Positions 801 to 51,423 are shown, counted from the stretch's first letter. The stretch is 64,000 nt of DNA from Acidimicrobiia bacterium (GCA_017882905.1 JADGOO010000113.1:372-64371); one strand, 5' to 3'. Program-made: numbers and translations. The notes: generated by a model from the letters alone, not told the origin.

Positions 801-1309
801 CCGACGACGGCGCGGGCTTTCCGGCTGGATACTCGCCGCGCGAGGTCGCCGACCGCCTCGCGATCCACGATCTCCTGCGCACGTACGCGTGGGCGATCGA
901 CGCGCAGGACTGGTCGCTGCTCGACACGGTGTTCACACCCGACGCGTGGCTCGACTACTCGTCGAACCCGGGTGGCATGGCCGGCCCGTACCCCGAAGCG
1001 CGTGCGTGGCTGGCGTCGGTGATGCCGTACTTCCCGATCACCCAGCACCTCATGGCGAACACGCTCGTGGAGCTCAGCGGCGATCGCGCCACAGCCAAGA
1101 CGATGGTCGCCAATCCGCAGGGTGCGCGCCAACGCGAAGGTCGCCCGCACTTCTTCTTCGTGGGTGCTCGCTACGACGACGAGCTGGCGCGCACCAACGC
1201 GGGTTGGCGGATCACGAAGCGGGTGGAGACGACGCTGTGGTTCCAGGGATCGCTCCCACCCGAGCTCGTCGGCCCCGACGACGCCCGAAGCCCCTCCCAA
1301 CCTGCGTGA
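797..1309 (+). CDS. SnoaL-like/NTF2-family protein
   Basis: DRLAIHDLLRTYAWAIDAQDW...TQHLMAN...GARYDDELART..GWRI; GTGA overlap with the upstream stop. Confidence 0.85.
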   Translation: MTDDGAGFPAGYSPREVADRLAIHDLLRTYAWAIDAQDWSLLDTVFTPDAWLDYSSNPGGMAGPYPEARAWLASVMPYFPITQHLMANTLVELSGDRATAKTMVANPQGARQREGRPHFFFVGARYDDELARTNAGWRITKRVETTLWFQGSLPPELVGPDDARSPSQPA

Positions 1310-1347
1310 CTCGATAGCGCATAGGGCGATCTGGTCACGCAAGTTCG
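1297..1347. repeat. 51-bp REP-like palindromic element, copy 1
   Basis: ccaacctgcgtgac-N23-gtcacgcaagttcg; near-identical to 51373-51423; between convergent genes, overlapping the 1309 stop. Confidence 0.85.
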
Positions 1348-1369
1348 GGGCCGTTGGGCCTCCGGCGGG

Positions 1370-2527
1370 CTAGCTGGTCTGGCCGAGGAGCCAAGCCGCG
1401 TTGTCGTGGAAGAGTCCCGGCGCATCGCCGGGCGTGGTGGCGAAGCGCTCGGACCCGCGGGCGTAGTCGGCCAGCGGCGTGGCTGTGCCTTCGCTGTGCG
1501 GGTAGTCGCTGCACGCCATGAGCACGTCGCCGCCGATCTCGCGCGCGATGCGCGCCGGTAGCTCGTAGGAGAACGACGACACGCGCACGTGGCGCAGGAA
1601 GTACTCGCTCGGCTTCGCCACGAGGCCCGGCGGGCGCCGACCGTTGAGCTTGCTCGTGAAGTCGATGCCGCCGTCGAGCATCATCAAGTACATCGGCACC
1701 CACACCGCGCTCAGCTCCACGATGCCGAGCCGCAGCCGCGGGTGGCGTTCGAACACGCCGTTCACGATGAGGTCCGTCGAAGCCAACGCTGCAGCCGTGT
1801 ACAGGAACACCGAGTCGAGCGTTGGGATGAACGTGTCGCCACCGTCGACGTACCACGCATCATCGAACGGGCGCGGCTGATCGGCCACGTGGAACACCGG
1901 CGCGATGTCGTGATCCTCGAAGAGCGACCACGCGCGGTCCACATCAGGATGCGAGAGCGGCTTGCCGTCGACGAGCGCCGGCGCAACCATCGCGGTGCGC
2001 ACGCCCGCCGCGCTCAACGCGTGCAGCTGCGACTCGAGCCACGCGTGATCGCGCAGGTGCACGTGCGCCACGGGATGCAACGCGCCGCGGCCCTCGTGCG
2101 CGACGGTCAGGCACCAACGGTTCCATGCGGCCATGTTCGCGAGCTGCGCAGCCGGGTCGACACCGAGACGACGCTCCCAGAGCAGACCGAAGTTCGGGAA
2201 CAGCACCGCCTCGTCGACACCGAGCGCGGCGAGACCGTCTCGGCGCGCCGCAGGATCCCAGTGATCACGCGGCAGCACATCGTCCCAGCGCGCCGAACAC
2301 GGCTCGCCGCGCAGTGCTGCCTGGTGCCGGTCGCCGATCGTGCTCGTGTCGCCGGGCGTCTGGAGCTCGGCCAGCCCGAGCCGCTCACCGCGCCAGCGCA
2401 ACCAGGTCCAGCCCGCGTCGTCGTCGACGAACTCGATGGCGTCGTCGCGGTGGGCCGGATCGATGTGCTCGGCCCAGAAGCCTCGCTGCTCCACGAGGTG
2501 CTGGTCGGAGTCGATCACCCGTGTCAT
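1370..2527 (-). CDS. Amidohydrolase_2 family protein
   Basis: MTRVIDSDQH (DxDxH metal motif), PVFH, GIVELSAVW, MACSDYPHSEG. Confidence 0.85.
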   Translation of the reverse strand: MTRVIDSDQHLVEQRGFWAEHIDPAHRDDAIEFVDDDAGWTWLRWRGERLGLAELQTPGDTSTIGDRHQAALRGEPCSARWDDVLPRDHWDPAARRDGLAALGVDEAVLFPNFGLLWERRLGVDPAAQLANMAAWNRWCLTVAHEGRGALHPVAHVHLRDHAWLESQLHALSAAGVRTAMVAPALVDGKPLSHPDVDRAWSLFEDHDIAPVFHVADQPRPFDDAWYVDGGDTFIPTLDSVFLYTAAALASTDLIVNGVFERHPRLRLGIVELSAVWVPMYLMMLDGGIDFTSKLNGRRPPGLVAKPSEYFLRHVRVSSFSYELPARIAREIGGDVLMACSDYPHSEGTATPLADYARGSERFATTPGDAPGLFHDNAAWLLGQTS

Positions 2528-2547
2528 CACCTGCGAGGATGCCACAG

Positions 2548-3360
2548 ATGGTTGGCGTGCCGCTCGACCCGCCGCTCGACACCACCGCCGACGTGTACCG
2601 GCGCAGCATCATCGTGCGCGAGCTCGAACCCGGCGTGGTGCAGTGCGGGCTGGAAGACGACTTCCACCACTTCATCGTCACGGTGCGCCACTCCTACGAG
2701 CGGGTGCTCGAGGTGACGATGCACGCCGAACGGTGGCCGTGGTCGACGTGCCCGGCCGCGGGCGCGCAGCTCGCCACGCTCGCCGCGATGCCGCTCTCAC
2801 CCCGCTTCACCGACGCGGCGCGTTGGTCCGATCCGGCGAAGGCGTGCACGCACCAGTTCGACGCGGCCGCGCACGCGATCACGCATGCTGCGGGTCGCCT
2901 CACCGGCAAGCGGCCGCTCCCCGAACGGCGCTACGACTGCGAGATCGGCGCGCATATGGGACGGCCGATCGACGAGGGCGGCCGGAACCGCCTCTGGGTC
3001 GACGGCGAGCTTGCACTCGAATGGCACGTGGTCGCGGGGCGCGGCATCGTCGACGCGCCGCCTCCGTTCGACGCCGCGCCGTGGAAGGGCGGCTTCATGC
3101 GCTGGGCCGACCAGACCCTCGATCCCGATGCCGCCGAGCAGGCGATCGTGCTGCGGCGCGCGTGTGATATCGGCATGGGGCGCGGCATGCCGCTCGACGA
3201 CATCCCGGTGGCGAGCGACCTCATGGGGCAGATGGCCGGCGTGTGTTACACGATGCAGCCGGAGCACGCACCACACGGACGCCGCAACGTGGGCAACATC
3301 TTCGACTTCGCCGCCGAGCCCGGCCGGCTCGATGCGCTACGCGCGCAGCCCCACGACTGA
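2548..3360 (+). CDS. DUF2889-like conserved protein with several conserved-looking Cys/His
   Basis: YRRSI...LEDDFHHF...WPWSTCP...CTHQFD pattern recalled for DUF2889 proteins; ATG at 2548. Confidence 0.6.
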   Translation: MVGVPLDPPLDTTADVYRRSIIVRELEPGVVQCGLEDDFHHFIVTVRHSYERVLEVTMHAERWPWSTCPAAGAQLATLAAMPLSPRFTDAARWSDPAKACTHQFDAAAHAITHAAGRLTGKRPLPERRYDCEIGAHMGRPIDEGGRNRLWVDGELALEWHVVAGRGIVDAPPPFDAAPWKGGFMRWADQTLDPDAAEQAIVLRRACDIGMGRGMPLDDIPVASDLMGQMAGVCYTMQPEHAPHGRRNVGNIFDFAAEPGRLDALRAQPHD

Positions 3361-4188: not shown

Positions 4189-4221
4189 GCCCCCTCCCTC
4201 GCCGACGTCATGCGCGCGCCG

Positions 4222-5004: not shown

Positions 5005-5025
5005 GGTCGGCGAATCTACCGGTTG

Positions 5026-19454: not shown

Positions 19455-20501
19455 GTGGCGGATCCCCGGCGGCGACGAGTGCTGGTCACCGGTGGCGCAG
19501 GATTCATCGGCAGCGTCACCACGTTGGCTCTGCTCGAGGCGGGCCACGACGTGATCGTGGCCGACGACCTCTCGAACAGCTCGAAGCACGCCATCGACCG
19601 CGTGGAGTCCCTGGCACGGGAGAGCGGCGCGGCCGGCGACCTCGAGTTCCACGAGCTCGATGCGCGCGACGACGCCGCGTTGCACGACTTGTTCGCGAGC
19701 GGCCACATCACCAGCGTGATCCACTTCGCCGGCCTCAAGGCCGTCGGCGAATCGGTGGACAAGCCACTCGACTACTACCGGGTGAACCTCGGTTCGACGG
19801 TCTCGCTGGTCACAGCCATGCGTGACCACGGCGTGCGCGACCTCGTGTTCTCGTCGTCGGCGACCGTGTACGGCCCGGAAGCGCAGAGCCCCTTGCGCGA
19901 AGACGCTGCGCTCAGCACCTCGAGCCCCTACGGGCGCACGAAGCTGTTCATCGAGCAGATGCTGCGCGACGTCGCGGCAGCCGAACCGGGTTGGAACATC
20001 GCCCTGCTCCGCTACTTCAACCCGATCGGCGCGCATCCGAGCGGCCTGATCGGCGAAGACCCGCGCGGCATCCCGAACAACTTGATGCCGTACATCATGC
20101 AGGTCGCCGTCGGGCGCCGCGACGAGCTCGTGGTGTTCGGCGACGACTACGACACGGCCGACGGCACCTGCGTACGCGACTACATCCACGTGCTCGACCT
20201 CGCTGACGGACATGTCGCTGCGCTGCACGCGATCGATCGCTTCCATGGCTGCCAGGCGGTGAACCTCGGCACCGGAACCGGCCATAGCGTGCTCGAGGTG
20301 CTCGCCGCGGCCACCGCCGCCGTGGGCAAGCCATTGCCGTTCCGCCTGGGGGCGCGGCGCCCCGGCGACATCGCAGTGACGGTGGCCGATCCCTCCCGCG
20401 CCGCGGCGCTGCTGGGGTGGAGCGCGACGCGCACGCTCAACGACATGTGCACCGACGCGTGGCGGTGGCAGTCGACGAACCCGTTCGGTTACGGCGACTG
20501 A
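19455..20501 (+). CDS. galE: UDP-glucose 4-epimerase
   Basis: VLVTGGAGFIGS, IHFAGLKAVGESV, FSSSATVYG, PYGRTK, LRYFNPIGAHPSG, NNLMPYI, CVRDYIHV. Confidence 0.95.
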   Translation: MADPRRRRVLVTGGAGFIGSVTTLALLEAGHDVIVADDLSNSSKHAIDRVESLARESGAAGDLEFHELDARDDAALHDLFASGHITSVIHFAGLKAVGESVDKPLDYYRVNLGSTVSLVTAMRDHGVRDLVFSSSATVYGPEAQSPLREDAALSTSSPYGRTKLFIEQMLRDVAAAEPGWNIALLRYFNPIGAHPSGLIGEDPRGIPNNLMPYIMQVAVGRRDELVVFGDDYDTADGTCVRDYIHVLDLADGHVAALHAIDRFHGCQAVNLGTGTGHSVLEVLAAATAAVGKPLPFRLGARRPGDIAVTVADPSRAAALLGWSATRTLNDMCTDAWRWQSTNPFGYGD

Positions 20502-21664
20502 GTCCCACCGGGACGAGCCGCCCGCTTCGCGCGCAAGTCGACGACGCTGCGGGCACCCAGAACCGGGATGAGCCTCCGAGCGTTGTCGCGGTACACGGCC
20601 GCCAGGAGCTCCTCGGGCAACGCGATGCCCGACACCGACCAGCGGCCTTGCGGCGGCACCGGTTCGCTCGAGTACGCGAAGTGCTCGTCGTCGGTCTCGA
20701 AGAACCGGAACAGCGGCGAGTACTCGCCGCGGCGCATCGGATACACGTCGGCGCCGAAGAGCACGCGATCTGAGAATCGCTCGATGAGCGCGCGAGTGGC
20801 GCGCGGTTGGCGTCCCATCTCGGCAAGGCGCGCACCCACGTCGACGGCGAGGTTCGGGTGCTCGGCCAAGGCGCGCCCGACCCATGCGAGGTCTTCGGCG
20901 ATCGCCATGTGCGCGGCGATGAACGTGGTCGCCGGGTGCGCGCCAACCGCTGACTCGAATGCTTCGAGCAGCCGCGCCATCGGCGGCACCGGCTTGCCGT
21001 ACAGCGACAGGCCCGGCGAGATCATGAGCTCTTCGAGTCGCTCGTTGTAGCGGTCGACAGGCTCGAAGAAGGCGCAAGGGTCGCCGACATGCACCACGAC
21101 CGGCACACCGAGCTCGCCCGCGGTGGCGAGCAGCGGCGAGAGGCGCGGGTCGTCGAGCAGCACGAGCGCGCCAGACCGATCACGCACCTCGAGTCCGAGA
21201 TCCTTCCAGATCTTCAGGCCCGCGGCGCCCGCGCCGACGCTCGCTCGGAGGCTCGCGCCGAGGCGCTCCGGTCCGTCGCGTTCGCTCAGGAGCCGCCAGT
21301 CGACATGGCAGTACGTCACGAACCGGCCCGGGTGCGCTCGGTCGTAGCGATCGAGGTTCGCCTCGAGCTCGGCCCCCCAGCGTCCGTCGAGGTTGACGAC
21401 GGATTCGAGGTTGAGCTCGTCCATCAGCGCGAGGCAGGCACCGACGTCGGGGATCATCCAGGTTCCGTCGCCGCTCAGCCAGCGGCCCAGGTGGTTGTGC
21501 GCATCGACGGCTGGCAGGCGCGCCCGCAGCACGTCGGTGGCCGCCGTGCGCACCATCGGGCGCGGCTCGTAGCCGTGCAGGCGCAGCGACGCGACCCGCA
21601 ACCGGCGCAACGACCGCCGGCCGGCCCCGAGCGGCGCGAGCGCACGACGCGTCAATGGTCCCAC
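20489..21664 (-). CDS. Amidohydrolase_2 family protein
   Basis: VDAHNHLG, GLKIWKDLG, HVGDP, FIAAH, RVLFGAD; start uncertain. Confidence 0.85.
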   Translation of the reverse strand: MGPLTRRALAPLGAGRRSLRRLRVASLRLHGYEPRPMVRTAATDVLRARLPAVDAHNHLGRWLSGDGTWMIPDVGACLALMDELNLESVVNLDGRWGAELEANLDRYDRAHPGRFVTYCHVDWRLLSERDGPERLGASLRASVGAGAAGLKIWKDLGLEVRDRSGALVLLDDPRLSPLLATAGELGVPVVVHVGDPCAFFEPVDRYNERLEELMISPGLSLYGKPVPPMARLLEAFESAVGAHPATTFIAAHMAIAEDLAWVGRALAEHPNLAVDVGARLAEMGRQPRATRALIERFSDRVLFGADVYPMRRGEYSPLFRFFETDDEHFAYSSEPVPPQGRWSVSGIALPEELLAAVYRDNARRLIPVLGARSVVDLRAKRAARPGGTQSP

Positions 21665-33038: not shown

Positions 33039-34487
33039 ATGATCGTGCTCGCCATCGACCAAGGCACGTCGGCGACCAAGGCGCTCGTCGTCGACGAGCG
33101 GGGCGTGGTCATCGGTGCCGCCGAGCGTGATGTGGCCGTGGATGCACGATCCGACGGAGCGGTCGAGACCGACCCCGAAGGCCTGTGGCGCTCCGTCGTG
33201 GACGCCGGCCGCGCGGCGCTGGATGGCGCGGGCCGGCCGCGCGTCGACGCGATCGGCCTGGCGAACCAGGGCGAGACGGTCTTGGCATGGGATCAGGCCA
33301 CCACCGCGCCGCTCACGTCGGCCATCGTGTGGCAGGACCGCCGCGCCGCGCCGCTGTGCGAGCGGCTCGCCGCCGACGGCTGGGATGCGCGCTTGCGCGC
33401 GCTCACAGGCCTCGAGCTCGACCCCTACTTCAGCGCTCCGAAGCTGGCGTGGCTGCGCGCGTCGCTCACCCGAGACGGCGTGGCCGGCACGACCGACACG
33501 TGGTTGCTCCAGCGCCTCACCGGCGAGCTGGTCACCGACACGGCAACCGCGTCGCGGTCGCTGCTGCTCGATCTCGACACGGCGCGGTGGTCCGCTGAGG
33601 CGTGCGCCGCGTTCGCCATCGATCCCGCAACGTTGCCCCGCATCGTCGGCAACGCCGAGCCGATCGGCGCCACCGACGTCTTCTCGCCCGGGTTGGGGGT
33701 GCCCCTCACCGGTACGTGTGTCGACCAGCAAGCTGCGCTGTTCGCGCAGCGGTGCACGGAACCCGGCGACACGAAGTGCACCTACGGCACGGGGGCGTTC
33801 CTGCTCACGCAGACCGGCACGGTCGCGCGCCGCTCCACGAACGGCCTCGTGGCATGCGTCGCGTGGCAGCTGGCCGACGGTGTGCACTACTGCCTCGACG
33901 GGCAGGTGTACACGGTGGGCGCGGCGGTCGACTGGCTACGCACCGTCGGCCTCATCGAACACGCCCGCGATCTCGACGGCGTCGGCGCGCAGGTGGCCGA
34001 CACGGGCGGCGTGGTGTTCGTGGCCGGCTTGGCCGGGCTCGCCGCACCGTTCTGGCGACCGGGTGCGCACGGCGCGTTCACCGGCCTGACCCTCGCCACC
34101 ACGCGTGCCCACCTCGTGCGCGCGGCCGTCGAGGGCATCGCCGCGCAGGTCGCATGGCTCGCCCGGGCCGCGGCCGCCGACATGGGTGCGCCGCTCACGT
34201 GTCTGCGCGTCGACGGCGGCCTCACGCGCTCGCGGTTGCTGCTCCAGCTGCAGGCCGACTTGGCGCAGGTTCCGATCGAGGTGCACGACTCACCGCACGC
34301 CACCGCACTCGGCGTGGCCGCGTTCGCCCGGATCGGCGCGGGCGGGGCCGGCGACGCGGCTACCGCGTTCGGCGAAGGCGTCGACACGCGCCCGACCACC
34401 GTGATCGAGCCGGCGATCGGCCGGGCGGAAGCCGAGGCCCGCCTCGACGCATGGCGCACCGCAGCCGAAGGGACGGCCGAGCTGTGA
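33039..34487 (+). CDS. FGGY-family kinase, glycerol-kinase-like
   Basis: AIDQGTSAT, NQGET, WQDRR, DPYFSAPK, DQQAALF, KCTYGTGAF, VDGG. Confidence 0.88.
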   Translation: MIVLAIDQGTSATKALVVDERGVVIGAAERDVAVDARSDGAVETDPEGLWRSVVDAGRAALDGAGRPRVDAIGLANQGETVLAWDQATTAPLTSAIVWQDRRAAPLCERLAADGWDARLRALTGLELDPYFSAPKLAWLRASLTRDGVAGTTDTWLLQRLTGELVTDTATASRSLLLDLDTARWSAEACAAFAIDPATLPRIVGNAEPIGATDVFSPGLGVPLTGTCVDQQAALFAQRCTEPGDTKCTYGTGAFLLTQTGTVARRSTNGLVACVAWQLADGVHYCLDGQVYTVGAAVDWLRTVGLIEHARDLDGVGAQVADTGGVVFVAGLAGLAAPFWRPGAHGAFTGLTLATTRAHLVRAAVEGIAAQVAWLARAAAADMGAPLTCLRVDGGLTRSRLLLQLQADLAQVPIEVHDSPHATALGVAAFARIGAGGAGDAATAFGEGVDTRPTTVIEPAIGRAEAEARLDAWRTAAEGTAEL

Positions 34488-37216
34488 GCGACCCCGGCGC
34501 GCGCCGCACCGAACCGTTCGACGTGGCCGTGGTCGGCGCAGGGGTGGTGGGGACGGCGATCGCGCGCGAGCTCGCACAACGGGGCGCGCACGTACTGATC
34601 GTCGAGGGCGGACCCGACATCGGCGCGGGCACGAGCAAGGCGAACACCGCGATCCTTCACACAGGATTCGACGCCAAGCCCGACACGACCGAGGCGCGCC
34701 TCGTTGCCCGCGGCGCGACGCTCCTCGGCGCCTACGCAGAGCGACGCGGGATCGCGGTCGAGCGCACCGGCGCGTTGCTGGTGGCGTGGACCGAGGAACA
34801 GCTTGACACGCTCCCCCGCCTCGCCGAGCAAGCCGCGCAGAACGGCTACCGCCACACGCACCTCGTCGATCGTGGATCGCTCACGACACTCGAGCCCCAC
34901 CTCGGCGCCGGTGCACTCGGCGCGCTGGCCGTTCCCGACGAGGCCATCATCGACCCGTGGTCGCCGGTGATCGCGTTCGCCACTGACGCCGTGCTCGCCG
35001 GCGCGCAGCTCGTGCGCGGCGCGCCTCTTCACGCGATCGATCTCGCTGGTGCTCACCACACGTTGCACACACGCGACGAGTCGTTCACCGCGCGTTGGAT
35101 CGTGAACGCGGCCGGTCTGCACGCCGACGACGTGGATCGCCTCGCCGGGTTCTCCGCGTTCACCGTGACCGCGCGCCGCGGCGAGTTGATCGTGTTCGAC
35201 AAGCTGGCGCGCCGGCTCGTGCACCACATCCTGTTGCCTGTACCCACAGCCACGACCAAGGGCGTTCTCGTGAGCCCGACGGTGTTCGGCAACGTGGTGC
35301 TCGGACCGACCGCCGAGGACCTCGACGACAAGGACGACCGATCGACAAGTCGCGCCGGTCTCGACGGCCTGCTCGCCCACGGGCGGCGCATCGTGCCCGC
35401 GCTCGTCGACGAGGAGATCACCGCCACCTACGCCGGTCTGCGCGCCGCGACCGAGCAATCCGACTACCGGCTCGCGACCTACGCCGAGCAGCGGTGGATC
35501 ACGGCGGGCGGCATCCGCTCGACCGGGCTGACGGCGTCGATGGCGATCGCCGAGCACGTGGCCCGGGAGCTGGTGGGCGCGGGGCTGGCGCTCCGGCCGC
35601 GCGACGGCGACGGCAACGGCGACGGCGACGGCGCGTGGTCGGTGCCACCGCTCGGCGAGACGACGCGGCGGCCGCACGGCGACGCGGCGCGCATCGAGGC
35701 CGACCCCGCCTACGGCGAGATCGTGTGCCACTGCGAGCGGGTGACCGCCGGCGAGCTGCGCGATGCCTGGGCCAGCCCGATCCCGCCCGTCGACCTCGAC
35801 GGCCTCCGGCGCCGCACGCGCGTGCTCATGGGCCGCTGCCAGGGCTTCCACTGCGCCGCCGCCGCCCGCACACCCCCCGAGCCCCCGATGCGTCGCTCAC
35901 CCGCGTCTGGCGCGGGTGAGCGACGCATCGGTGGGGCGTCGGGGGCGGGGCGAGTCGATGTGCTGGTGGTCGGCGCCGGGCCCGCCGGCCTCAGCGCGGC
36001 CGCGCGGCTCGCCGCGGCCGGCGTGGCCGTGCTCGTCGTGGAACGGGCCGAGGCGCCCGGCGGCATCCCCCGCCACACCCACCATCAGGGCTTCGGCTGG
36101 CGCGACCTGCGTCGCAGCCTCACCGGGCCGCAGTACGCGGCGCGCCTCGCCGACCGCGCCGTGGCCGCCGGTGCCGCGATCGAGCTCGCAACCACGGCGG
36201 ACATCGCCAGTGACGCCTGGGCCGGAACGCGCGCGTTCGAGCTCACTGCGCCCGGCGGGCGGCGCCGCGTCGAGGCCGGCGCGGTCCTCCTCGCAACAGG
36301 CTGTCGTGAGCGACCGCGCAACGCGCGCCTCGTCCCCGGCGACCGGCCCGACGGTGTGCTCACCACGGGCGCGCTCCAGGTGCTGATCGATGCCGGACGG
36401 TTCCATGGTGCGCGCGCTGTCGTGGTGGGCGCGGAGCACGTGTCGTACTCGGCGGCGCTCACGTTGCGACATGCCGGTTGCGCGGTCGCGGCGATGGTCA
36501 CCACGGAACCGGGACCGCAGAGCTTCGCGGCGTTCGACGTGATCCGCCGCGTCGTGTGGCGCACTCCCCTGCTCACGCGCCGTGCACCGGCGCGCATCAA
36601 CGGTCGACACGGCCGGGTGGAAGCGGTCGTGCTCGACGACGGCCGCGTGATCGAGTGCGACACGGTCGTGTTCAGTGGCGATTGGATACCAGACCATGAG
36701 CTCGCCCGCCGCGGCGGGATCGGCATCGATGCGCCAACCCGTGGCCCGTCGGTCGACATCGCGCTGCGCACGCGCACACCGGGCGTGTTCGCAGCCGGCA
36801 ACCTGTTGCACGCGGCGGCGACCGCCGATGTGTGCGCGCTCGACGGCCGTCATGTGGCCGCGGCCATCACCGCATGGCTCGGCGACGGTCGCTGGCCCGA
36901 GGCGCCGGTGGCGATCACCGCCGAGGCACCGTTCGCGTGGGTCAGCCCGAACCGTCTCTCCCCGGGCGGGAGCACTCTGCGCTCGCCGAACGGTCGCCTC
37001 CTCGCCCTGCCCGGCGCCGGTCGCGGCCCCGGCGGCGCCGGAGCGGGTCCCGGCCACCCCGGTCGGGCCACCCGCGTGGTGACCGTCGCACAGCACGGTC
37101 GGGTGCTCTGGCACGGCCGCCGGCGCCTCGTGGCGAACCGCCTCGTAAGCATCCCCGACGGTTGGCTGGCCGCCGTCGACCCGGATCTCGGAGCCGTCCG
37201 TGTCTCGGCCTCGTAG
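34484..37216 (+). CDS. Fusion: GlpA-like FAD oxidoreductase + BFD-like [2Fe-2S] domain + pyridine-nucleotide-disulphide-type oxidoreductase (910 aa)
   Basis: VVGAGVVG, GTSKANTAILH, CHCERVT, MGRCQGFHC, then a second VVGAGPAG, LLATGCRER, FAAGNLLH, all in one frame. Confidence 0.8.
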   Translation: MSDPGARRTEPFDVAVVGAGVVGTAIARELAQRGAHVLIVEGGPDIGAGTSKANTAILHTGFDAKPDTTEARLVARGATLLGAYAERRGIAVERTGALLVAWTEEQLDTLPRLAEQAAQNGYRHTHLVDRGSLTTLEPHLGAGALGALAVPDEAIIDPWSPVIAFATDAVLAGAQLVRGAPLHAIDLAGAHHTLHTRDESFTARWIVNAAGLHADDVDRLAGFSAFTVTARRGELIVFDKLARRLVHHILLPVPTATTKGVLVSPTVFGNVVLGPTAEDLDDKDDRSTSRAGLDGLLAHGRRIVPALVDEEITATYAGLRAATEQSDYRLATYAEQRWITAGGIRSTGLTASMAIAEHVARELVGAGLALRPRDGDGNGDGDGAWSVPPLGETTRRPHGDAARIEADPAYGEIVCHCERVTAGELRDAWASPIPPVDLDGLRRRTRVLMGRCQGFHCAAAARTPPEPPMRRSPASGAGERRIGGASGAGRVDVLVVGAGPAGLSAAARLAAAGVAVLVVERAEAPGGIPRHTHHQGFGWRDLRRSLTGPQYAARLADRAVAAGAAIELATTADIASDAWAGTRAFELTAPGGRRRVEAGAVLLATGCRERPRNARLVPGDRPDGVLTTGALQVLIDAGRFHGARAVVVGAEHVSYSAALTLRHAGCAVAAMVTTEPGPQSFAAFDVIRRVVWRTPLLTRRAPARINGRHGRVEAVVLDDGRVIECDTVVFSGDWIPDHELARRGGIGIDAPTRGPSVDIALRTRTPGVFAAGNLLHAAATADVCALDGRHVAAAITAWLGDGRWPEAPVAITAEAPFAWVSPNRLSPGGSTLRSPNGRLLALPGAGRGPGGAGAGPGHPGRATRVVTVAQHGRVLWHGRRRLVANRLVSIPDGWLAAVDPDLGAVRVSAS
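35603..35632. repeat. 6-bp tandem repeat (GACGGC)x5 encoding DGDGNGDGDG
   Basis: gacggc gacggc aacggc gacggc gacggc. Confidence 0.8.
35874..35945. repeat. Long palindrome in frame at the fusion junction
   Basis: Perfect 21-bp arms at 35885-35905 and 35911-35931, loop TCTGG, imperfect C/G extension. Confidence 0.9.
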
Positions 37217-37246
37217 GCTCGGCCGCCAGTGCGAAGGGGGAAGCCC

Positions 37247-38629
37247 ATGACCGTTCCCGGCATGCTCGACGCGACGGAGCTCGCCGACCACATCCGTAGC
37301 GGCGCGATCGACACGGTGCTGGTGGTGTTCCCCGACCTGCAGGGGCGCCTCATGGGCAAGCGCGTCACGGGCCACTTCTGGCTCGAGCAGATGCGCGGTG
37401 GTCAGGGCGAGATCCACGCGTGCAACTACCTGCTCGCGGTCGACTCCGAGATGACGGTGCTCCCCGACTACCGCTACGCGAACTGGGACACCGGCTACGG
37501 CGACTTCGCGCTCGCGCCCGACCTCACCACGATCCGCCTCATCCCATGGCTCGAAGCGACCGCCCTCGTGATGTGCGACGTGGCCGACGAGCGCTCGGGC
37601 GCGCCGGTCGAGGTGTCACCGCGCCGCATCCTGCAACGGCAGGTGGAGCGCGCCGCGGCACTCGGCTACTCCGTCTACATGGGCTCCGAGCTCGAGTTCC
37701 TACTGTTCCGCGAAACGCTCGAAGAGGCGGCCGAGAAGCACTACACCGATCTCGCGCCACTCTCCAACGTCGTGCTCGATTACCACATCCTGCAGACCAC
37801 GCGCGACGAGTCGATCATCCGAGCGATCCGCAACGGGATGGACGGCGCAGGCGTACCCGTCGAGTTCAGCAAGGGTGAAGCCGAGAAGGGCCAGCACGAG
37901 ATCAACCTCTCGTACGCCGACGCGGTGACGATGGCCGACCGTCACGTGATCTACAAGAACGGCGCCAAGGAGATCGCACACCAGCACGGCCATGCGATCA
38001 CGTTCATGGCGAAGTACGACATCGACATGGTCGGATCGTCGTGTCACGTGCACTCGAGCGTGTGGAACGCCGACGGCTCGAAGTCGTTGATGTGGAGCGA
38101 CGACGGACCGCATCACCAATCCGAGGTCACCCAGGGCTGGCTCGGCGGCCTCATCGCCACCGGCCGCGAGCTCGCATGGATGCACGCCCCCACGGTCAAC
38201 TCGTACAAGCGTTACCAGCCCGAGTCCTGGGCGCCGACGGCGCTCGTCTGGGGCGAAGACAATCGCACGTGCGGGTTCCGCATGGTGGGCCACGGTCAGG
38301 GGTTCCGCGTGGAGTCACGCATCCCGGGCGCCGACGCCAACCCGTACCTCTCGTTCGCGGCCACGATCGCCGCGGGGTTGCACGGCATCGAGCTCGGGAT
38401 CACGCCCGGGTCGGTGTTCGCCGGCAACGCCTATGCCGCGCCCGACATCGCGCGCGTCCCGTGGAACATCGTGGAATCCATCGAGGAGTTCGAGCACTCG
38501 AAGGTTGCGATCGCCGCCTTTGGCGACGACGTGCACTACCACCTGTTGAACACCGCCCGGCAGGAATGGCGTGCGTTCAATCGTCACGTCACCGACTGGG
38601 AACGTCGGAGGAACTTCGACCAATGGTGA
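37247..38629 (+). CDS. Glutamine-synthetase-like gamma-glutamyl-amine ligase (PuuA/GlnA4 type)
   Basis: PDLQGRLMGKR, ELEF, GQHEIN, GSSCHVH, WGEDNRT, ESRIPGADANPY. Confidence 0.88.
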   Translation: MTVPGMLDATELADHIRSGAIDTVLVVFPDLQGRLMGKRVTGHFWLEQMRGGQGEIHACNYLLAVDSEMTVLPDYRYANWDTGYGDFALAPDLTTIRLIPWLEATALVMCDVADERSGAPVEVSPRRILQRQVERAAALGYSVYMGSELEFLLFRETLEEAAEKHYTDLAPLSNVVLDYHILQTTRDESIIRAIRNGMDGAGVPVEFSKGEAEKGQHEINLSYADAVTMADRHVIYKNGAKEIAHQHGHAITFMAKYDIDMVGSSCHVHSSVWNADGSKSLMWSDDGPHHQSEVTQGWLGGLIATGRELAWMHAPTVNSYKRYQPESWAPTALVWGEDNRTCGFRMVGHGQGFRVESRIPGADANPYLSFAATIAAGLHGIELGITPGSVFAGNAYAAPDIARVPWNIVESIEEFEHSKVAIAAFGDDVHYHLLNTARQEWRAFNRHVTDWERRRNFDQW

Positions 38630-38638
38630 GCACACACC

Positions 38639-38689
38639 CGAACATGCGTCAGAATCCGCGCAGCACACGGGGGAGCTGACGCATGTTCG
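38639..38689. repeat. 51-bp REP-like palindromic element, copy 2 (diverged); contains the RBS and ATG of the next gene
   Basis: cgaacatgcgtcag-N23-ctgacgcatgttcg: perfect 14-bp arms, same length and arm consensus as the other copies. Confidence 0.75.
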
Positions 38690-39435
38690 ATGGGAGACCG
38701 CTTGTTGGGCTCACCGCGCGGCGTCTCGCGCAAGGTCGCGTCTCGGGTTGGCAATCGGCCGGTAGCGGTGAGCGCGCGGGCTACATGGACCGCGTGCGCG
38801 CGGCCGGTGGCCTTCCGGTGCTCCTCGATCCCGCCCCCGGCGCCGCAGGTGACGCCGAAGACCTCGTGGCACGCCTCGATGCCCTCGTGCTCACGGGCGG
38901 TCCCGACGTGGAACCGTCGCGTTACGGGCAGGCCGCGCACGACAGCGTGTACGGCACCGATGCGCACGTCGACGACTTCGAGACGGCGATCACGCGTGCG
39001 GCGCTCGCCGCGCGCCTACCCGTGCTCGCCATCTGTCGGGGCATCCAAGTGCTCAACGTCGTGTGCGGCGGCACCCTGTACCAGCACATCCCCGACCGGC
39101 CCGGCGTGGAGCCCCACGGCCGTCCGGGTGAGCGCGACGGTGAGCGCATCCAGCGGATCGACATCGTCGGCGACTCTCGCCTGGCGCGAGTGATGGGCAC
39201 CACGGAGCCGATGTGCTCGTGTCACCACCATCAAGCAGTGGATCAATTGGGTGACGGGCTGCGAGTGGTCGGCCGCGCGGCTGACGGTGTGGTCGAGGCG
39301 ATCGAATTGATCGATCCCGGCGTGCCCGTGCTCGCCGTGCAATGGCATCCGGAAGACACCGCCGCGAACGACCCGGCCCAGCAAGCACTCTTCGACGCGG
39401 TGGTTGCCGATGCTCGCGCGGTGCACCACCATTGA
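38683..39435 (+). CDS. Gamma-glutamyl-gamma-aminobutyrate-hydrolase-like peptidase C26 (PuuD type)
   Basis: LVLTGGPDV, AICRGIQVLNV..GGTL, HHQAV, AVQWHPE. Confidence 0.88.
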   Translation: MFDGRPLVGLTARRLAQGRVSGWQSAGSGERAGYMDRVRAAGGLPVLLDPAPGAAGDAEDLVARLDALVLTGGPDVEPSRYGQAAHDSVYGTDAHVDDFETAITRAALAARLPVLAICRGIQVLNVVCGGTLYQHIPDRPGVEPHGRPGERDGERIQRIDIVGDSRLARVMGTTEPMCSCHHHQAVDQLGDGLRVVGRAADGVVEAIELIDPGVPVLAVQWHPEDTAANDPAQQALFDAVVADARAVHHH

Positions 39436-47546: not shown

Positions 47547-47552
47547 GCGCGG

Positions 47553-47573: not shown

Positions 47574-47603
47574 TGTGCGCCCGCCCGGGAAGGCGACCCG
47601 ACG

Positions 47604-47642
47604 AAAAGGGCCCGCCGGGGGCTCGAGCCTTCCCGGCGGGCC
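47604..47642 (-). terminator. Intrinsic terminator on the minus strand
   Basis: GGCCCGCCGGG / CCCGGCGGGCC 11-bp stem followed by CUUUU; no ORF ends here. Confidence 0.65.
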
Positions 47643-47700
47643 AGCGCCTCATGTCCCTTGGGGGGGTCGGGACGGAAGCGGACTGATTCATCCATCGGCC
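47604..47700 (-). ncRNA. Candidate small RNA with a C7-loop hairpin (6C-like) plus terminator; 5' end not defined
   Basis: Minus strand GUCCC-GACCCCCCCAA-GGGAC (47653-47673) followed by the terminator hairpin. Confidence 0.4.
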
Positions 47701-47771
47701 GCCACGGGCGGGATTTGAGCGCGTTCCTCGCGCCCGGCCGACTTTGAGACACAGGTCCTAATCTCGCCGCC

Positions 47772-49322: not shown

Positions 49323-50113
49323 TCCAAGAGCTTGGTAGCGGCGACACGACCGAACGACCGATCCGTCTCGGCGGCGCGCTCATCACGATGGTGGAGCCCC
49401 GCAAGGGCCATGAGGTCGCGTACAACCGTTGGTACGAGCGCGACCACTTCTACGCCGGGTGCCAGATCGGCGCCTGGAACCTGCAGGGCGGGCGCTATGT
49501 GGCCACACGCGACCTGAAGGCGTTGCGCTACCCCGCCGACTCGCCCGTGTGCCCCGACCCCACGTCGGGGTCGTACGTGGCGATCTACTGGATCGTGGCC
49601 GGCCGGTTCAAGGACTGGATGGCGTGGGGCACCCAACAGGTGCAGTGGCTGCACGCGAACGGCCGCATGTTCCTCGAACGCGACCACATCCACACCGCGA
49701 TGTACACGATGCGCACCGAGTACGAGCAGCCCGATGGCGTGCCGGTCGAGCTCGCGCTCGATCACCGGTCGCCGTACTGCGTGCTGTTCATCGGTGAGCC
49801 GCTCGACGGTGTGAAGCTCGACGCCGTCGACGCCTGGTTCCGCACCGAGGCCAAGCTTCCCAATGTCGTCGGCGCGGAGTTCACGCCGGTGCCGCTCCTC
49901 GGTGACGCACCGAGCGACGTGCCCCGTACGGAGACGGGCAACCGCTTCGCGCAGCTGTGGTTCGTCGACGACGACCTCCCCGCCGTGTGGGCGGACAGCT
50001 ACGGCACGCTCGGCGAGCGCCTCGAGGCCGCGGGCCTGGCGCGCGCGCTGTTCGTGTCGCCGTTCCGGGCAACCGTTCCCGGCACCGACACGTACACCGA
50101 TCAGCTCTGGTGA
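49319..50113 (+). CDS. Conserved hypothetical protein, EthD/dimeric alpha-beta barrel-like N-terminus
   Basis: LITMVEP..GHEVAYNRWYERDH; GTGA-coupled to the CoA ligase. Confidence 0.55.
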   Translation: MIQELGSGDTTERPIRLGGALITMVEPRKGHEVAYNRWYERDHFYAGCQIGAWNLQGGRYVATRDLKALRYPADSPVCPDPTSGSYVAIYWIVAGRFKDWMAWGTQQVQWLHANGRMFLERDHIHTAMYTMRTEYEQPDGVPVELALDHRSPYCVLFIGEPLDGVKLDAVDAWFRTEAKLPNVVGAEFTPVPLLGDAPSDVPRTETGNRFAQLWFVDDDLPAVWADSYGTLGERLEAAGLARALFVSPFRATVPGTDTYTDQLW

Positions 50114-50148
50114 GGCATACGGCGTTCGGGTAGGTAACGTCGCCGGGC

Positions 50149-51357
50149 ATGCGGATCCTCGTCGTCGGTGCCGGTGGCGTTGGATCGGCGATCGTCACCG
50201 CGGCGGCCAGTCGCGACTTCTTCGAAGCGTTGATCATCAGCGACGTCGACGGCGACCGGGCCCGCGCCGCAGCCGACCACAACCCCGACGATCGCATCAC
50301 GGCCACCCGACTCGACGCGTCGGACGCGGCCGCCGTCGCGGAGTGCGCCCGCGCACACCAGGCCGACTGGGTCGTGAACGCGTGCGATCCTCGGTTCAAC
50401 GTGGCGATCTTCGACGGCGCGTTCCACGCCGGCGCGCACTACCTCGATATGGCGATGACGCTGTCGACCCCGCACCCCGAGCGGCCCCACGAGCTACCCG
50501 GCGGGATCCTCGGTGATTACCAGTTCGCACAGCACGACATCTGGACCGACCGCGGGCAGCTCGCGCTCGTGGGCCTCGGCATCGAACCCGGTTTCGCCGA
50601 CGTCGCGGCGCGCTATGCGGCCGACCACCTGTTCTCCGAGGTGCACGAGATCGGCGTGCGCGACGGTGCGAACCTCACCATCGAGGGGTACGCGTTCGCA
50701 CCCACGTTCTCGATCTGGACCACGATCGAGGAGTGTCTCAACCCGCCGTTGATCTGGGAGCGCGAGCGCGGTTGGTACACGACCATGCCGTTCTCGGAGC
50801 CCGAGGTGTTCGACTTCCCGGCCGGCATCGGGCCGGTCGAGTGCGTGAACGTCGAGCACGAAGAAGTGGTGCTGATCCCGCGCTGGGTCGACTGCGGGCG
50901 CGTCACGTTCAAGTACGGCCTCGGCGACGAGTTCATCGAGGTGCTCAGCGTCTTGCACAAGACGGGGCTCGACCGCACCGCACCCGTGAAGCTGCGCGGC
51001 GGGATCGAGGTGTCGCCGCGCGACGTGGTGGCCGCCACCCTGCCCGACCCGGCCACGCTCGGCGATCGCATGACCGGCCGCACGTGCGCGGGAACCTGGG
51101 CGCGCGGCATCGGCGTCGACGGCTCGCCGCGCGAGGTGTACCTGTACCACGTGAGCGACAACGAGCAGACGATGCGCGAGCACGGCGCGCAGGCCGTCGT
51201 GTGGCAGACGGCGATCAACCCGGTGATCGGTCTCGAGCTGATCGCCAACGGCGCGTGGAGCGGAGCCGGCGTGTTGGGCCCGGAGGCGTTCGACGCGGTG
51301 CCGTACCTCGACCTCATGGCCGCCCGCGGCGAACCCTGGCACCTCGAGGACCGCTGA
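50149..51357 (+). CDS. Saccharopine-dehydrogenase-family oxidoreductase
   Basis: ILVVGAGGVG, HYLDMA, GIEPG, TTIEECLNPP, EHEEV. Confidence 0.85.
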   Translation: MRILVVGAGGVGSAIVTAAASRDFFEALIISDVDGDRARAAADHNPDDRITATRLDASDAAAVAECARAHQADWVVNACDPRFNVAIFDGAFHAGAHYLDMAMTLSTPHPERPHELPGGILGDYQFAQHDIWTDRGQLALVGLGIEPGFADVAARYAADHLFSEVHEIGVRDGANLTIEGYAFAPTFSIWTTIEECLNPPLIWERERGWYTTMPFSEPEVFDFPAGIGPVECVNVEHEEVVLIPRWVDCGRVTFKYGLGDEFIEVLSVLHKTGLDRTAPVKLRGGIEVSPRDVVAATLPDPATLGDRMTGRTCAGTWARGIGVDGSPREVYLYHVSDNEQTMREHGAQAVVWQTAINPVIGLELIANGAWSGAGVLGPEAFDAVPYLDLMAARGEPWHLEDR

Positions 51358-51372
51358 ACCCGGGCACGTACC

Positions 51373-51423
51373 CGAACTTGCGTGACTCGATAGCGCAGAG
51401 CGCTATCTGGTCACGCAAGTTCG
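51373..51423. repeat. 51-bp REP-like palindromic element, copy 3
   Basis: cgaacttgcgtgac-tcgatagcgcagagcgctatctg-gtcacgcaagttcg; perfect 14-bp arms and inner gatagcg/cgctatc stem; between convergent genes. Confidence 0.9.

What the first reader, a model, noticed from the sequence alone, without database searches (positions are those of the whole stretch)
1297..51423. A 51-bp REP-like palindrome family (14-bp arms, 23-nt core) with three copies in 64 kb
Seen: copies at 1297-1347 and 51373-51423 are near-identical and both sit between convergent genes. A third at 38639-38689 has different but still perfectly complementary arms (cgaacATgcgtCAG / CTGacgcATgttcg versus cgaacTTgcgtGAC / GTCacgcAAgttcg) and exactly the same geometry, so the changes are compensatory. 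Established: REP elements cluster at convergent junctions and are spread by RAYT/IS200-IS605-type HUH nucleases. Inference: an undescribed REP/MITE-like family under selection for secondary structure; no cognate transposase lies in this window.
Basis: partly seen in the sequence, partly recalled or inferred. Interest (0 to 1): 0.65.

Follow-up and report, generated by a model that had tools for sequence, protein, structure and literature searches.

The report
Scattered palindromes partnered with a nuclease gene
The three 51-base hairpin repeats are real members of a genome-wide repeat family, and the gene that goes with them is not the expected REP transposase but a DNA-binding nuclease gene that sits between two copies of the same palindrome, a pairing for which I found no published description.

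Summary
A covariance model built without them scores them at 59, 52.7 and 44 bits and finds 58 loci in this 4.36-Mb Acidimicrobiia-type genome. The outer arms (C-S-AAC-NN-GCGT / ACGC-NN-GTT-S-G) and the 51-nt length are conserved across genera. The inner stem differs between subfamilies and genomes but stays paired. Copies lie a median of 13 nt after stop codons and almost never between divergent genes.

The RAYT reading fails. No Y1/HUH transposase is found in this genome or in any of the 12 repeat-bearing relatives.

Instead, one ~315-aa gene elsewhere in this genome (contig C205, outside the window) is bracketed by two copies of the palindrome. It encodes an AbiEi-type winged-helix module fused to an EDxHD/Vsr-like homing-endonuclease domain. 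The same palindrome-gene-palindrome unit of about 1.0 kb recurs in 77 of 79 protein-ascertained loci (about 61 bracketed on both sides). Each paralogue clade carries its own arm sequence. Scattered solo copies match the arms of the resident gene.

Best reading: these are REP-like solo copies of the nuclease's cognate site. The mechanism is not shown. I found no published description, although earlier reports of this scan describe the same system in other genomes.

The parts
1297..1347 (.). Solo palindrome, subtype 'GATAGCGC' (inner stem). It lies between convergent genes. Its left arm (GCGTGAC) supplies the TGA stop of the + gene 797-1309.
   Evidence: Covariance model R1, built without window copies: 52.7 bits, E 5e-14. 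RNA fold -31.9 kcal/mol, z -2.8.
38639..38689 (.). Solo palindrome, subtype 'CAGAAnCCGCGC'. It lies between two co-directional genes, 10 nt after the stop of gene 37229-38629. An ATG in its right arm (38683) is in frame with the downstream ORF.
   Evidence: R1: 44 bits, E 3e-11. Fold -33 kcal/mol, z -5.4. Arm-ATG check.
51373..51423 (.). Solo palindrome, subtype 'GATAGCGC', with perfect arms and a perfect inner stem. It lies between convergent genes: 15 nt after the stop at 51357 and 8 nt before the stop of the - gene at 51432.
   Evidence: R1: 59 bits, E 6e-16. Fold -41.9 kcal/mol, z -7.1. No U-tract terminator call.
35886..35930 (.). Fourth, variant palindrome (arms GATGCGTCGCTCACCCGCG, 45 nt). 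A palindrome of the same type follows the 3' end of this genome's second nuclease paralogue (C252:29145-29984). It is read through in frame at what looks like a junction between two fused genes (ORF 34484-37216).
   Evidence: R1: 40.6 bits, E 3e-10. Sequence and translation. Paralogue's palindrome. Fold -56.3 kcal/mol, z -8.2.

Best explanation
The 51-bp palindromes are scattered solo copies of the cognate DNA site of a small selfish or semi-domesticated unit.

The unit is about 1.05 kb. It consists of one gene for an AbiEi-type winged-helix DNA-binding module fused to an EDxHD/Vsr-like (homing-endonuclease-type) nuclease, bracketed by two copies of the palindrome. This genome's copy with the CSAAC-NN-GCGT arms lies outside the window, on contig C205: gene 20149-21096, palindromes at 20111-20161 and 21165-21215.

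Proposed working, inferred and not shown:
- The protein recognises the conserved outer arms (universal core [T/G]GCG[T/C][C/G]) on duplex, hairpin or cruciform DNA.
- It cuts there.
- Break repair or re-joining then copies, moves or homogenises the palindrome, and occasionally the gene.
- The inner stem only has to remain self-complementary.

Copies survive, or are targeted, just downstream of stop codons. There a strong hairpin does no harm and may incidentally stabilise or end transcripts. In function this is a REP/RAYT-like partnership of a repeat with a dedicated enzyme, but built on an unrelated enzyme.
For: SHOWN:
1. Family. There are 58 loci in the genome, all 51 nt long, with conserved arms and co-varying inner stems.
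2. Cross-genus conservation. The strict pattern hits 12 of 41 related genomes with 1-44 copies each, and the reversed-pattern control gives 0 everywhere. Arms and length are kept while the inner stem is genome-specific. More than 117 further loci, almost all in Acidimicrobiia MAGs, appear.
3. Bracketing.
   - The C205 gene lies between two copies.
   - 11 of the 13 best homologue loci in relatives are bracketed.
   - All 4 proteins looked up through the look-up of encoding contigs are bracketed.
   - Of 79 loci ascertained by protein alone, 77 have at least one adjacent palindrome and about 61 have a matching pair. Centres lie about 1000-1035 bp apart. The background is 10% per 300-nt window.
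   - 9-10 of 17 distant paralogues are bracketed by entirely different palindromes.
4. Specificity.
   - All 5 paralogues in one genome (G041) have their own arm type.
   - TTTGGCGY-type solos number 34 in G041, with control 0.
   - CTGATCGA-type solos number 8, 10 and 11 in the three genomes whose gene carries those arms. They number 0 in three genomes whose genes carry other arms.
   - Genomes with at least 9 CSAAC-type copies are enriched for close homologues of the C205 protein (6/9 against 4/32, Fisher p = 0.003).
5. Protein.
   - The AlphaFold model has pLDDT 91.
   - The N-terminal ~200 aa resemble the AbiEi antitoxin 6y8q. The C-terminal ~100 aa resemble the catalytic domain of I-Bth0305I, 3r3p (probability 1.0, TM 0.73-0.75).
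   - PADLOC AbiEi models match at E 1e-32. Pfam MTES_1575, AbiEi_1 and AbiEi_4 also match.
   - E205, D237, H255 and D264 are invariant and D250 nearly so. They have the same spacing as the catalytic E170, D196, N208, H213 and D222 of I-Bth0305I (PMC3239194).
6. Signs of mobility.
   - The unit sits at unrelated chromosomal sites in different genomes, once inside a trp operon.
   - Decayed or frameshifted copies exist (L176; G016:C8).
   - Its codon-usage score is atypically low in this genome (22 against 64-137 for its neighbours).
   - Metagenome contigs carrying it often end after about 1.0-1.4 kb, at the repeats.
   - A solo copy present in G023 is absent from the orthologous intergenic site of G009, which is in the same genus.
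Against: - No cleavage, binding or transposition has been observed. Every mechanistic step is inference.
- Co-occurrence is imperfect. G017 and G023 carry 15 and 10 copies with no close homologue (they are 91% complete in 800 contigs and 71% complete). G016 has only a decayed bracketed copy. G040 has a close homologue without detectable palindromes.
- In this genome only about 7 of 58 copies share the inner stem of the two copies that bracket the gene. The two largest subtypes have no resident gene.
- No target-site duplication and no conserved flank motif was found, so the insertion chemistry is unknown.
- An intact recognition site on both sides of a homing-type gene is atypical, because homing normally destroys the site.
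- A note in this scan's records (under e1-1113521) says that a pre-set test on other DNA came out against the repeat going with the gene.
- My copy lists are ascertained by the arms, which inflates the apparent conservation of the arms.
- My gene calls are home-made and missed at least one real gene.
Confidence: 0.55

Rival explanations
1. Footprint model, analogous to solo LTRs. Only the whole ~1.05-kb cassette moves. Recombination or replication slippage between its two flanking copies, which are mostly in direct orientation, deletes the gene and leaves one palindrome behind. Solo copies are then scars of past cassette insertions and are not mobilised themselves.
For: The bracketing copies are direct repeats of each other in 37 of 50 decidable pairs (binomial p = 0.0009). 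Decaying cassettes exist. Solo copies decay without compensation within subfamilies. Solo copies occupy the same kind of site as cassettes, immediately after a neighbour's stop codon.
Against: - It needs about 50 independent cassette insertions in a 4.4-Mb genome that now keeps one cassette of this arm type.
- The largest subtypes in this genome have no cassette.
- Arms stay conserved across subtypes and genera while the inner stems turn over. That fits continuing recognition by a trans-acting factor better than it fits dead scars.
- 13 of 50 pairs are inverted.
Confidence: 0.2
2. Host-function-first model. The palindromes are primarily 3'-end RNA hairpins (U-tract-less terminators or barriers to exonucleases), or sites for a host DNA-binding factor. 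The nuclease gene is a parasite that homes into them, so the palindrome is its target and not its product.
For: - Copies lie a median of 13 nt after stop codons. Counts are 78 convergent, 75 tandem and 8 divergent (chi-square p = 4e-14 against a 1:2:1 expectation).
- The hairpins are very stable, -32 to -42 kcal/mol.
- Every cassette site looks like a solo site with a gene dropped into it.
- EDxHD enzymes are known homing endonucleases (PMC3239194).
Against: - Independently evolving terminators would not share a fixed 51-nt length and arm sequence across genera, nor fall into young subfamilies.
- There is no U-tract.
- There is no significant G-U over A-C bias on the transcribed strand (p = 0.08).
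- The arm type changes with the nuclease clade, even between paralogues within one genome.
- The family is absent from most genomes of the same taxonomic family (29 of 41), so no conserved host need is evident.
Confidence: 0.15
3. Regulon model. The AbiEi-like protein is a repressor. The palindromes are its operators, both the autoregulatory one upstream of its own gene and others scattered through the genome. The nuclease domain is inactive or unrelated to the repeats.
For: AbiEi antitoxins are autorepressors that bind inverted repeats in their own promoters (my own knowledge of the S. agalactiae AbiE system; the fold match to 6y8q is). The upstream palindrome centre lies 59-82 nt before the start codon.
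Against: - Solo copies avoid promoter-only (divergent) regions: 8 of 161.
- They lie after stop codons, often between convergent genes where there is nothing to regulate.
- A second copy always follows the gene's 3' end.
- The catalytic EDxHD residues are invariant.
- No AbiEii toxin partner lies next to the gene.
Confidence: 0.05
4. One reading: classical REP elements spread by a RAYT or an IS200/IS605-type HUH (Y1) transposase encoded elsewhere in the genome.
For: There is a general resemblance: short extragenic palindromes, enrichment at convergent junctions, and many copies per genome.
Against: - Y1_Tnp (PF01797) gives no match in this genome (reported as 100% complete), while positive controls match in 6 of 14 reference genomes.
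- It is present in only 2 of 41 relatives, and neither carries the repeat.
- No conserved 5' tetranucleotide flanks the copies.
- A different gene is bracketed by the repeats.
Confidence: 0.02

Closest known systems
REP / REPIN elements with their RAYT (TnpA-REP) gene, the 'REPtrons' of Proteobacteria
   Same: - Short extragenic palindromes in tens of copies per genome.
- Concentrated at gene 3' ends and convergent junctions.
- One low-copy gene for a nuclease is itself bracketed by copies of the repeat.
- The repeat sequence is specific to the enzyme lineage.
- Distribution among related genomes is patchy.
   Different: - The enzyme is unrelated: an AbiEi winged-helix module plus an EDxHD/Vsr-like PD-(D/E)XK-type nuclease in place of a Y1 HUH transposase.
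- No GTAG-like guide tetranucleotide is present.
- Units are single 51-nt palindromes, not inverted REP doublets.
- The gene occupies different chromosomal sites in different genomes and can be multi-copy with different arm types, so it looks more mobile than the vertically inherited RAYTs.
- The host group is Acidimicrobiia and other Actinomycetota.
EDxHD (Vsr-like) homing endonucleases, prototype I-Bth0305I (PDB 3r3p; PMC3239194)
   Same: - The C-terminal catalytic domain has the same fold (Foldseek probability 1.0, TM 0.73-0.75).
- The five catalytic positions are conserved with the same spacing.
- The architecture is an N-terminal DNA-binding region followed by a C-terminal nuclease.
- I-Bth0305I acts as a dimer on a pseudopalindromic target.
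- Free-standing members of the family are known.
   Different: - The gene is not inside an intron or intein.
- The N-terminal module is AbiEi-like, not NUMOD/HTH.
- The putative site survives intact on both sides of the gene, and also as dozens of solo copies. In classical homing a single site is destroyed by insertion.
AbiE type IV toxin-antitoxin / abortive-infection system (AbiEi antitoxin, PDB 6y8q)
   Same: The N-terminal ~180-200 residues match AbiEi models (PADLOC E 1e-32; Foldseek E 7e-6). AbiEi binds inverted repeats upstream of its own gene.
   Different: - No AbiEii nucleotidyltransferase partner is present.
- AbiEi is fused to a nuclease domain.
- The inverted repeats are 51-nt hairpin-capable palindromes on both sides of the gene and scattered across the genome.
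MITEs and palindrome-associated derivatives of IS200/IS605 (PATEs)
   Same: These are short non-coding derivatives that share the end structures of a protein-coding parent element.
   Different: - No target-site duplication is present.
- A solo copy equals one whole end. It is not two ends joined together.
- The parent encodes no known transposase family.

Membership tests
REP/REPIN-RAYT | Short palindromic extragenic repeat in many copies per genome | tested here: met
   58 loci in 4.36 Mb. Reversed-pattern control is 0.
REP/REPIN-RAYT | A RAYT gene (Y1 HUH, Pfam Y1_Tnp) in the genome, flanked by the repeats | tested here: not met
   PF01797 gives 0 matches in G000 and 0 in all 12 repeat-bearing relatives. 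Controls were positive.
REP/REPIN-RAYT | Conserved tetranucleotide (GTAG-like) at the 5' foot of the hairpin | tested here: not met
   Flank positions -15 to -1 and +1 to +15 show only a C/G composition skew and no fixed motif.
REP/REPIN-RAYT | Repeats organised as inverted doublets (REPINs) | tested here: not met
   Nearly all copies are singletons. The rare arrays are local tandem duplications.
EDxHD / Vsr-like homing endonuclease (applies to the partner protein) | Vsr-like catalytic fold | tested here: met
   Model pLDDT 91. Match to 3r3p with probability 1.0 and TMt 0.73-0.75.
EDxHD / Vsr-like homing endonuclease (applies to the partner protein) | Conserved E...D...x...H...D catalytic residues | tested here: met
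   E205, D237, H255 and D264 are invariant and D250 is at least 90% conserved in 41 sequences. Spacing matches I-Bth0305I.
EDxHD / Vsr-like homing endonuclease (applies to the partner protein) | Site-specific double-strand cleavage of the allele that lacks the gene, followed by homing | not testable with these tools
   This needs biochemistry or genetics.
AbiE toxin-antitoxin system | AbiEi DNA-binding antitoxin domain | tested here: met
   PADLOC AbiEi E 3e-32 over residues 12-178. 6y8q fold match.
AbiE toxin-antitoxin system | Adjacent AbiEii (nucleotidyltransferase) toxin gene | tested here: not met
   The neighbours are unrelated housekeeping genes. The gene stands alone between the palindromes.
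MITE | Target-site duplication flanking each copy | tested here: not met
   Direct repeats of 2-6 nt at the flanks occur at or below chance.
Intrinsic (Rho-independent) terminator | GC-rich hairpin followed by a U-tract | tested here: not met
   The hairpin is present. There is no T-run: 0 terminator-like sites at copy 3, and T is only 17-29% at +1 to +10.
Any curated RNA family (Rfam 15) | Match at the gathering threshold | tested here: not met
   0 matches in the window. With a relaxed E-value only generic hairpin matches to miRNA precursors appear, far below their cut-offs.
Integron attC site | Core sites RYYYAAC / GTTRRRY at the ends of an imperfect palindrome | tested here: not met
   AAC and GTT are in the right places, but the neighbouring base is G (or C) in CGAAC/GTTCG in 156 of 178 copies, which violates the Y/R rule. 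Copies are dispersed and do not form cassette arrays. I did not search for IntI.

The most novel reading that the evidence does not exclude
AbiEi-EDxHD nuclease genes and their lineage-specific ~50-bp palindromes form a second, HUH-independent class of 'repeat plus dedicated enzyme' systems, in Acidimicrobiia and other Actinomycetota. The nuclease recognises the foot of a hairpin or cruciform formed by its own palindrome. By cutting there it multiplies, moves or homogenises dozens of solo copies, and occasionally its own gene. Specificity (the arm sequence) diversifies by co-evolution of protein and site, so that several orthogonal systems can coexist in one genome.
Probability: 0.4. Interest if true: 0.85.

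Novelty: new variant of a known kind. Interest (0 to 1): 0.68.

Why it matters
REP/RAYT is so far the textbook case of a bacterial repeat family kept alive by a single dedicated, repeat-bracketed enzyme.

If the pairing found here works as proposed, three things follow:
- It would be an independent invention of that lifestyle with a different catalytic chemistry, a Vsr/EDxHD nuclease in place of a HUH tyrosine transposase.
- It would give a function to a very large, uncharacterised protein family, variously annotated as 'DUF559', 'very-short-patch-repair endonuclease' or 'regulator of viral defence system'.
- It would provide a natural set of nucleases with long recognition sites (about 11-13 bp per arm) that diversify by lineage.

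There is also a practical point. These palindromes break metagenome assemblies and supply stop codons, and sometimes start codons, to neighbouring genes. They therefore matter for annotating Acidimicrobiia MAGs.

Tried and rejected
- Rfam. The gathering search found nothing. The relaxed search found only generic hairpin matches.
- RAYT/Y1 transposase. Absent.
- Target-site duplication and conserved flank motif. None found, only a C-rich 5' / G-rich 3' skew (background).
- Insertion into a pre-existing hairpin. Joined flanks fold no better than within-half shuffles (-15.0 against -14.8 kcal/mol).
- RNA-level strand asymmetry. G-U 76 against A-C 55 in tandem contexts, p = 0.08. Not significant.
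- Empty-site search between G043 and G042. The two genomes are not syntenic or close enough.
- The G023/G009 pair gave one clear presence/absence case. At 76% identity the exact junction cannot be read.
- Strain-level variants through exact-protein look-up of window genes. No records.
- 'Portable RBS plus start codon' idea for subtype A. The arm ATG opens a long, coding-like ORF in only 2-3 of 11 copies, so this is not a general property.
- Test for half-site exchange between the two bracketing copies (cut-and-ligate model). Cross-pairing was slightly better than within-copy pairing (31 against 13 pairs), but this is confounded by the direct and inverted orientation classes. Inconclusive.
- Tandem arrays as evidence for a longer mobile unit. 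Spacers are locus-specific, so the arrays are local duplications.
- attC reading. Rejected on the core-site consensus and the lack of arrays.
- Literature. No paper links DUF559, AbiEi or EDxHD proteins to palindromic repeats.

Full report
**1. Observation**

The three palindromes are present exactly at 1297-1347, 38639-38689 and 51373-51423.
- Copy 1 has two arm mismatches.
- Copies 1 and 3 are 90% identical.
- Copies 1 and 3 lie between convergent genes.
- Copy 2 lies between two co-directional genes.
- My own gene caller first missed the minus-strand FGGY-kinase-like gene 51432-52946. GC-by-codon-position (0.75/0.52/0.88) shows that gene is real.
- The '23-nt core' is itself a stem-loop. 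The whole element folds as a 23-24-bp hairpin at -32 to -42 kcal/mol.

**2. Family size and structure**

The window is C259:372-64371 of a 4.36-Mb, 69.5% G+C assembly in 259 contigs.
- Regex and nhmmer searches found about 50 copies, all 51 nt long.
- I aligned 52 copies without gaps, excluding the three window copies. For the 23-pair stem:
  - 83.9% of cells pair, against 64.1% in column shuffles and 28-36% when the partner is slid by 1-3 columns.
  - 277 cells change on both sides, against 113 expected.
  - The covariation score is 0.494 against 0.162.
- A 178-copy set gives the same picture. It also shows a softer zone at pairs 14-17 (62-69% paired) between a 13-bp outer stem and a 6-7-bp inner stem.
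- The covariance model R1 then scored the three window copies at 59, 52.7 and 44 bits (E 6e-16 to 3e-11). It found a fourth, 45-nt relative at 35886-35930 (40.6 bits).
- Over the whole genome R1 gives 110 strand-hits, which are 58 loci, at E <= 0.01.

Rfam has no such family.

**3. Where the copies sit**

I used a home-made codon-usage gene caller (4017 genes, 91% coding).
- Among the ~49 G000 copies with nhmmer E below 1, none lies between divergent genes.
- Nearly all lie 0-30 nt after a stop codon.
- In at least six cases the gene ends in the TGA of the arm GCGTGAC (distance -13). Window copy 1 is one of them.
- Over 179 copies (this genome plus 117 loci from other genomes) the counts are 78 convergent, 75 tandem, 8 divergent and 7 inside ORFs. 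The median distance to a stop is 13 nt. Chi-square against 1:2:1 gives p = 4e-14.
- There is no U-tract.
- There is no target-site duplication and no conserved flank motif.
- The 15 nt on the 5' side are 50% C and 20% G, and the 3' side is the mirror image. This is more skewed than the background after stop codons, which is C 39% / G 34%.
- Flanks are not conserved within a subtype, so the repeated unit is the 51 nt itself.
- Joined flanks form no specific hairpin.

**4. Distribution**

- The strict pattern SAAC-NN-GCGT-N29-ACGC-NN-GTTS occurs in 12 of 41 related genomes:
  - own genome 28
  - G008 44
  - G019 31
  - G017 15
  - G016 12
  - G009 11
  - G023 10
  - G014 and G034 9 each
  - G010 3, G021 2, G005 1
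- The reversed, non-complemented control gives 0 everywhere.
- Arms and the 51-nt length are kept across genera, and across two families of the order. The inner stem is genome-specific.
- A scan of one genome per species returned more than 117 loci. Almost all come from Acidimicrobiia, Microthrixaceae or loosely labelled Actinomycetota MAGs. A few come from Thermoleophilia-type genomes (Patulibacter, Solirubrobacterales).

**5. The RAYT hypothesis fails**

- Pfam Y1_Tnp has no match in this genome, which is reported as 100% complete. Controls were positive.
- It is found in only 2 of 41 relatives (G022, G033), neither of which carries the repeat.

**6. The gene that does go with the repeat**

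Several loci had two copies about 1 kb apart. In this genome the pair at C205:20111-20161 and 21165-21215 brackets a 315-aa gene (20149-21096, minus strand). Its codon-usage score is unusually low. Homologues lie between the paired copies in L116, L145 and L176, the last being frameshifted.

I then ascertained loci by protein alone:
- 11 of the 13 best homologue loci in relatives are bracketed by two 50-51-nt palindromes 1000-1054 bp apart.
- All four proteins looked up in public assemblies are bracketed too. One of them sits inside a trp operon.
- Of 79 loci fetched with a profile of the family, 77 have at least one adjacent palindrome.
- About 61 of them have a matching pair, with centres about 1000-1035 bp apart. 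The background is 10% per 300-nt window for the score threshold used.
- 9-10 of 17 distant paralogue loci are bracketed by matching palindromes with completely different arms, for example CTGATCGAGCT, GAGCATGCGAGAG and CATTCTCGAGGCTC.

Within the clade close to this genome's protein the arms vary in their first 5-7 bases (CGAAC-NN, CGTTTTG, CATTCCG, CGAGGTT and others). They share the core [T/G]GCG[T/C][C/G].

**7. The repeat goes with the gene**

- In G041 five paralogues (100, 75, 37, 37 and 37% identity) are each bracketed by their own palindrome type.
- The TTTGGCGY type has 34 copies in G041, with control 0.
- The CTGATCGA type has 8, 10 and 11 copies in the three genomes whose nuclease gene carries those arms (G002, G020, G005). 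It has 0 copies in three genomes whose genes carry other arms (G000, G009, G001), with control 0.
- For the CSAAC type, 6 of the 9 genomes with at least 9 copies have a close homologue of the C205 protein (E below 1e-45). Only 4 of the other 32 do (Fisher p = 0.003). Two of those four carry bracketing palindromes of a sister arm type.
- Exceptions are G017 and G023, which have solo copies but no close homologue and are incomplete or fragmented. G016 has only a decayed bracketed copy. G040 has a homologue without palindromes.
- This genome's second paralogue (C252:29145-29984) is followed by a palindrome of the GATGCGTCGC type. The fourth window copy, 35886-35930, is of the same type.

**8. The protein**

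- Pfam gives AbiEi_4, AbiEi_1 and REase_MTES_1575, mostly below the gathering thresholds. DUF559 matches one member.
- PADLOC AbiEi models match residues 12-178 at E 3e-32.
- Public annotations call it 'very-short-patch-repair endonuclease' or 'regulator of viral defense system'.
- An AlphaFold model from a 41-sequence alignment has pLDDT 91.2 and pTM 0.85.
- Foldseek matches the N-terminal ~200 residues to the AbiEi antitoxin 6y8q (E 7e-6).
[quoted passage not shown] Weaker matches include DUF559 protein 3hrl, AbaSI and TnsA.
- E205, D237, H255 and D264 are invariant and D250 nearly so. Their spacing matches the catalytic E170, D196, N208, H213 and D222 of I-Bth0305I, the prototype of the EDxHD family, which acts as a dimer on a pseudopalindromic site (PMC3239194).

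The nuclease is therefore probably active. No AbiEii partner gene is adjacent.

**9. Signs of mobility**

- The cassette occupies unrelated sites in different genomes. In each case the site looks like an ordinary solo site, just after a neighbour's stop codon, with a gene dropped in.
- Broken copies exist.
- Many metagenome contigs that carry the gene are only 1.0-1.4 kb long. That is what an assembler produces when a unit is bounded by repeats.
- One orthologous comparison within a genus shows a solo copy in G023, between a gene's TGA and the def start codon, that is absent in G009. At 76% identity the exact junction is unreadable.
- The two bracketing copies are direct repeats of one another in 37 pairs, inverted in 13 and undecidable in 18.
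- Within subtypes, copies decay without compensation.
- G-U is not significantly favoured over A-C on the transcribed strand.

Taken together, the hairpin requirement looks like a DNA-level requirement of the propagation mechanism, not selection on an RNA.

**10. Interpretation**

Shown:
- A real, structured repeat family that spans genera.
- No RAYT.
- A tight, clade-specific physical association between the palindromes and an AbiEi-EDxHD nuclease gene.

Inferred:
- That the protein recognises the arms and cuts there.
- That this multiplies or moves the palindromes.

I put 0.55 on this REP/RAYT-like partnership. The rivals are:
- 0.20 on the footprint (solo-LTR-like) variant, in which only the cassette moves.
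- 0.15 on the palindromes being host 3'-end hairpins that the gene merely parasitises.
- 0.05 on an operator regulon.
- 0.02 on classical RAYT-driven REPs.

**11. Prior knowledge**

Literature searches found no description of palindromic repeats linked to DUF559, AbiEi or EDxHD proteins.

After I had reached this reading, I consulted the scan's own records. At least eight earlier follow-ups in other genomes report the same 'nuclease gene bracketed by cognate palindromes' system. One record notes that a pre-set test on other DNA went against the repeat going with the gene. My tests with reversed-pattern controls support the association in this sample but do not settle causality. The system is therefore new to print as far as I can tell, but not new to this scan.

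**12. Limits**

- Gene calls are home-made.
- Copy lists are ascertained through the arms.
- Most genomes are MAGs.

Noticed in passing
window 35886-35930 (ORF 34484-37216): A perfect 21-bp-arm palindrome of the variant type is translated in frame with no stop. It lies between a C-terminal ...MGRCQGFHC motif and a typical FAD-binding N-terminus, VDVLVVGAGPAG. It looks as if two adjacent genes have been fused through the repeat.
   Followed up: partly
window 1297-1309, and at least 5 other copies in the genome (for example C187:51874, C104:1913, C191:13478, C199:3448, C205:20111): The arm GCGTGAC supplies the TGA stop codon of the adjacent gene (distance -13). The last 3-4 residues of those proteins are therefore encoded by the repeat.
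   Followed up: partly
window 38669-38685: GGGGGAG followed by an ATG in the right arm of copy 2 could be the RBS and start codon of the downstream ORF 38683-39435. Across the 11 copies of this subtype, the arm ATG opens a long coding-like ORF in only 2-3, so this is occasional co-option and not a design feature.
   Followed up: partly
flanks of 178 copies (this genome plus L081-L197): The 15 nt 5' of each copy are about 50% C and 20% G, and the 15 nt on the 3' side are the mirror image. This exceeds the background after stop codons. The skew is not register-specific pairing and is not conserved within subtypes. It is unexplained; it could be a target preference or selection for a longer, loose stem.
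   Followed up: partly
genome contigs: The subtypes differ in context. The 'CAGAAnCCGCGC' subtype is mostly between co-directional genes (8 of 11), sometimes filling the whole 55-nt spacer. The 'GATAGCGC' subtype is mostly between convergent genes.
   Followed up: no
L231:1379-2501: A palindrome-bracketed nuclease cassette sits inside a tryptophan operon (IGPS, PALP, [cassette], PRAI, PALP) on the same strand as the operon genes.
   Followed up: no
L138:4003-4389; also L090, L126, L167, L180, L185: There are tandem arrays of 2-5 copies with 10-32-nt spacers. The spacers repeat within an array but differ between loci, so these are local duplications reminiscent of BIME clusters.
   Followed up: partly
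table: Dozens of metagenome contigs carrying homologues of the nuclease are only about 1.0-1.4 kb long, roughly the length of one cassette. This suggests that assemblies break at the flanking palindromes.
   Followed up: no
window 51432-52946 against 52254-54350: Two ORFs with good coding statistics overlap by about 690 nt on opposite strands: an FGGY-kinase-like gene on the minus strand and a plus-strand gene. The start of the plus-strand gene is probably further downstream than my caller placed it.
   Followed up: no
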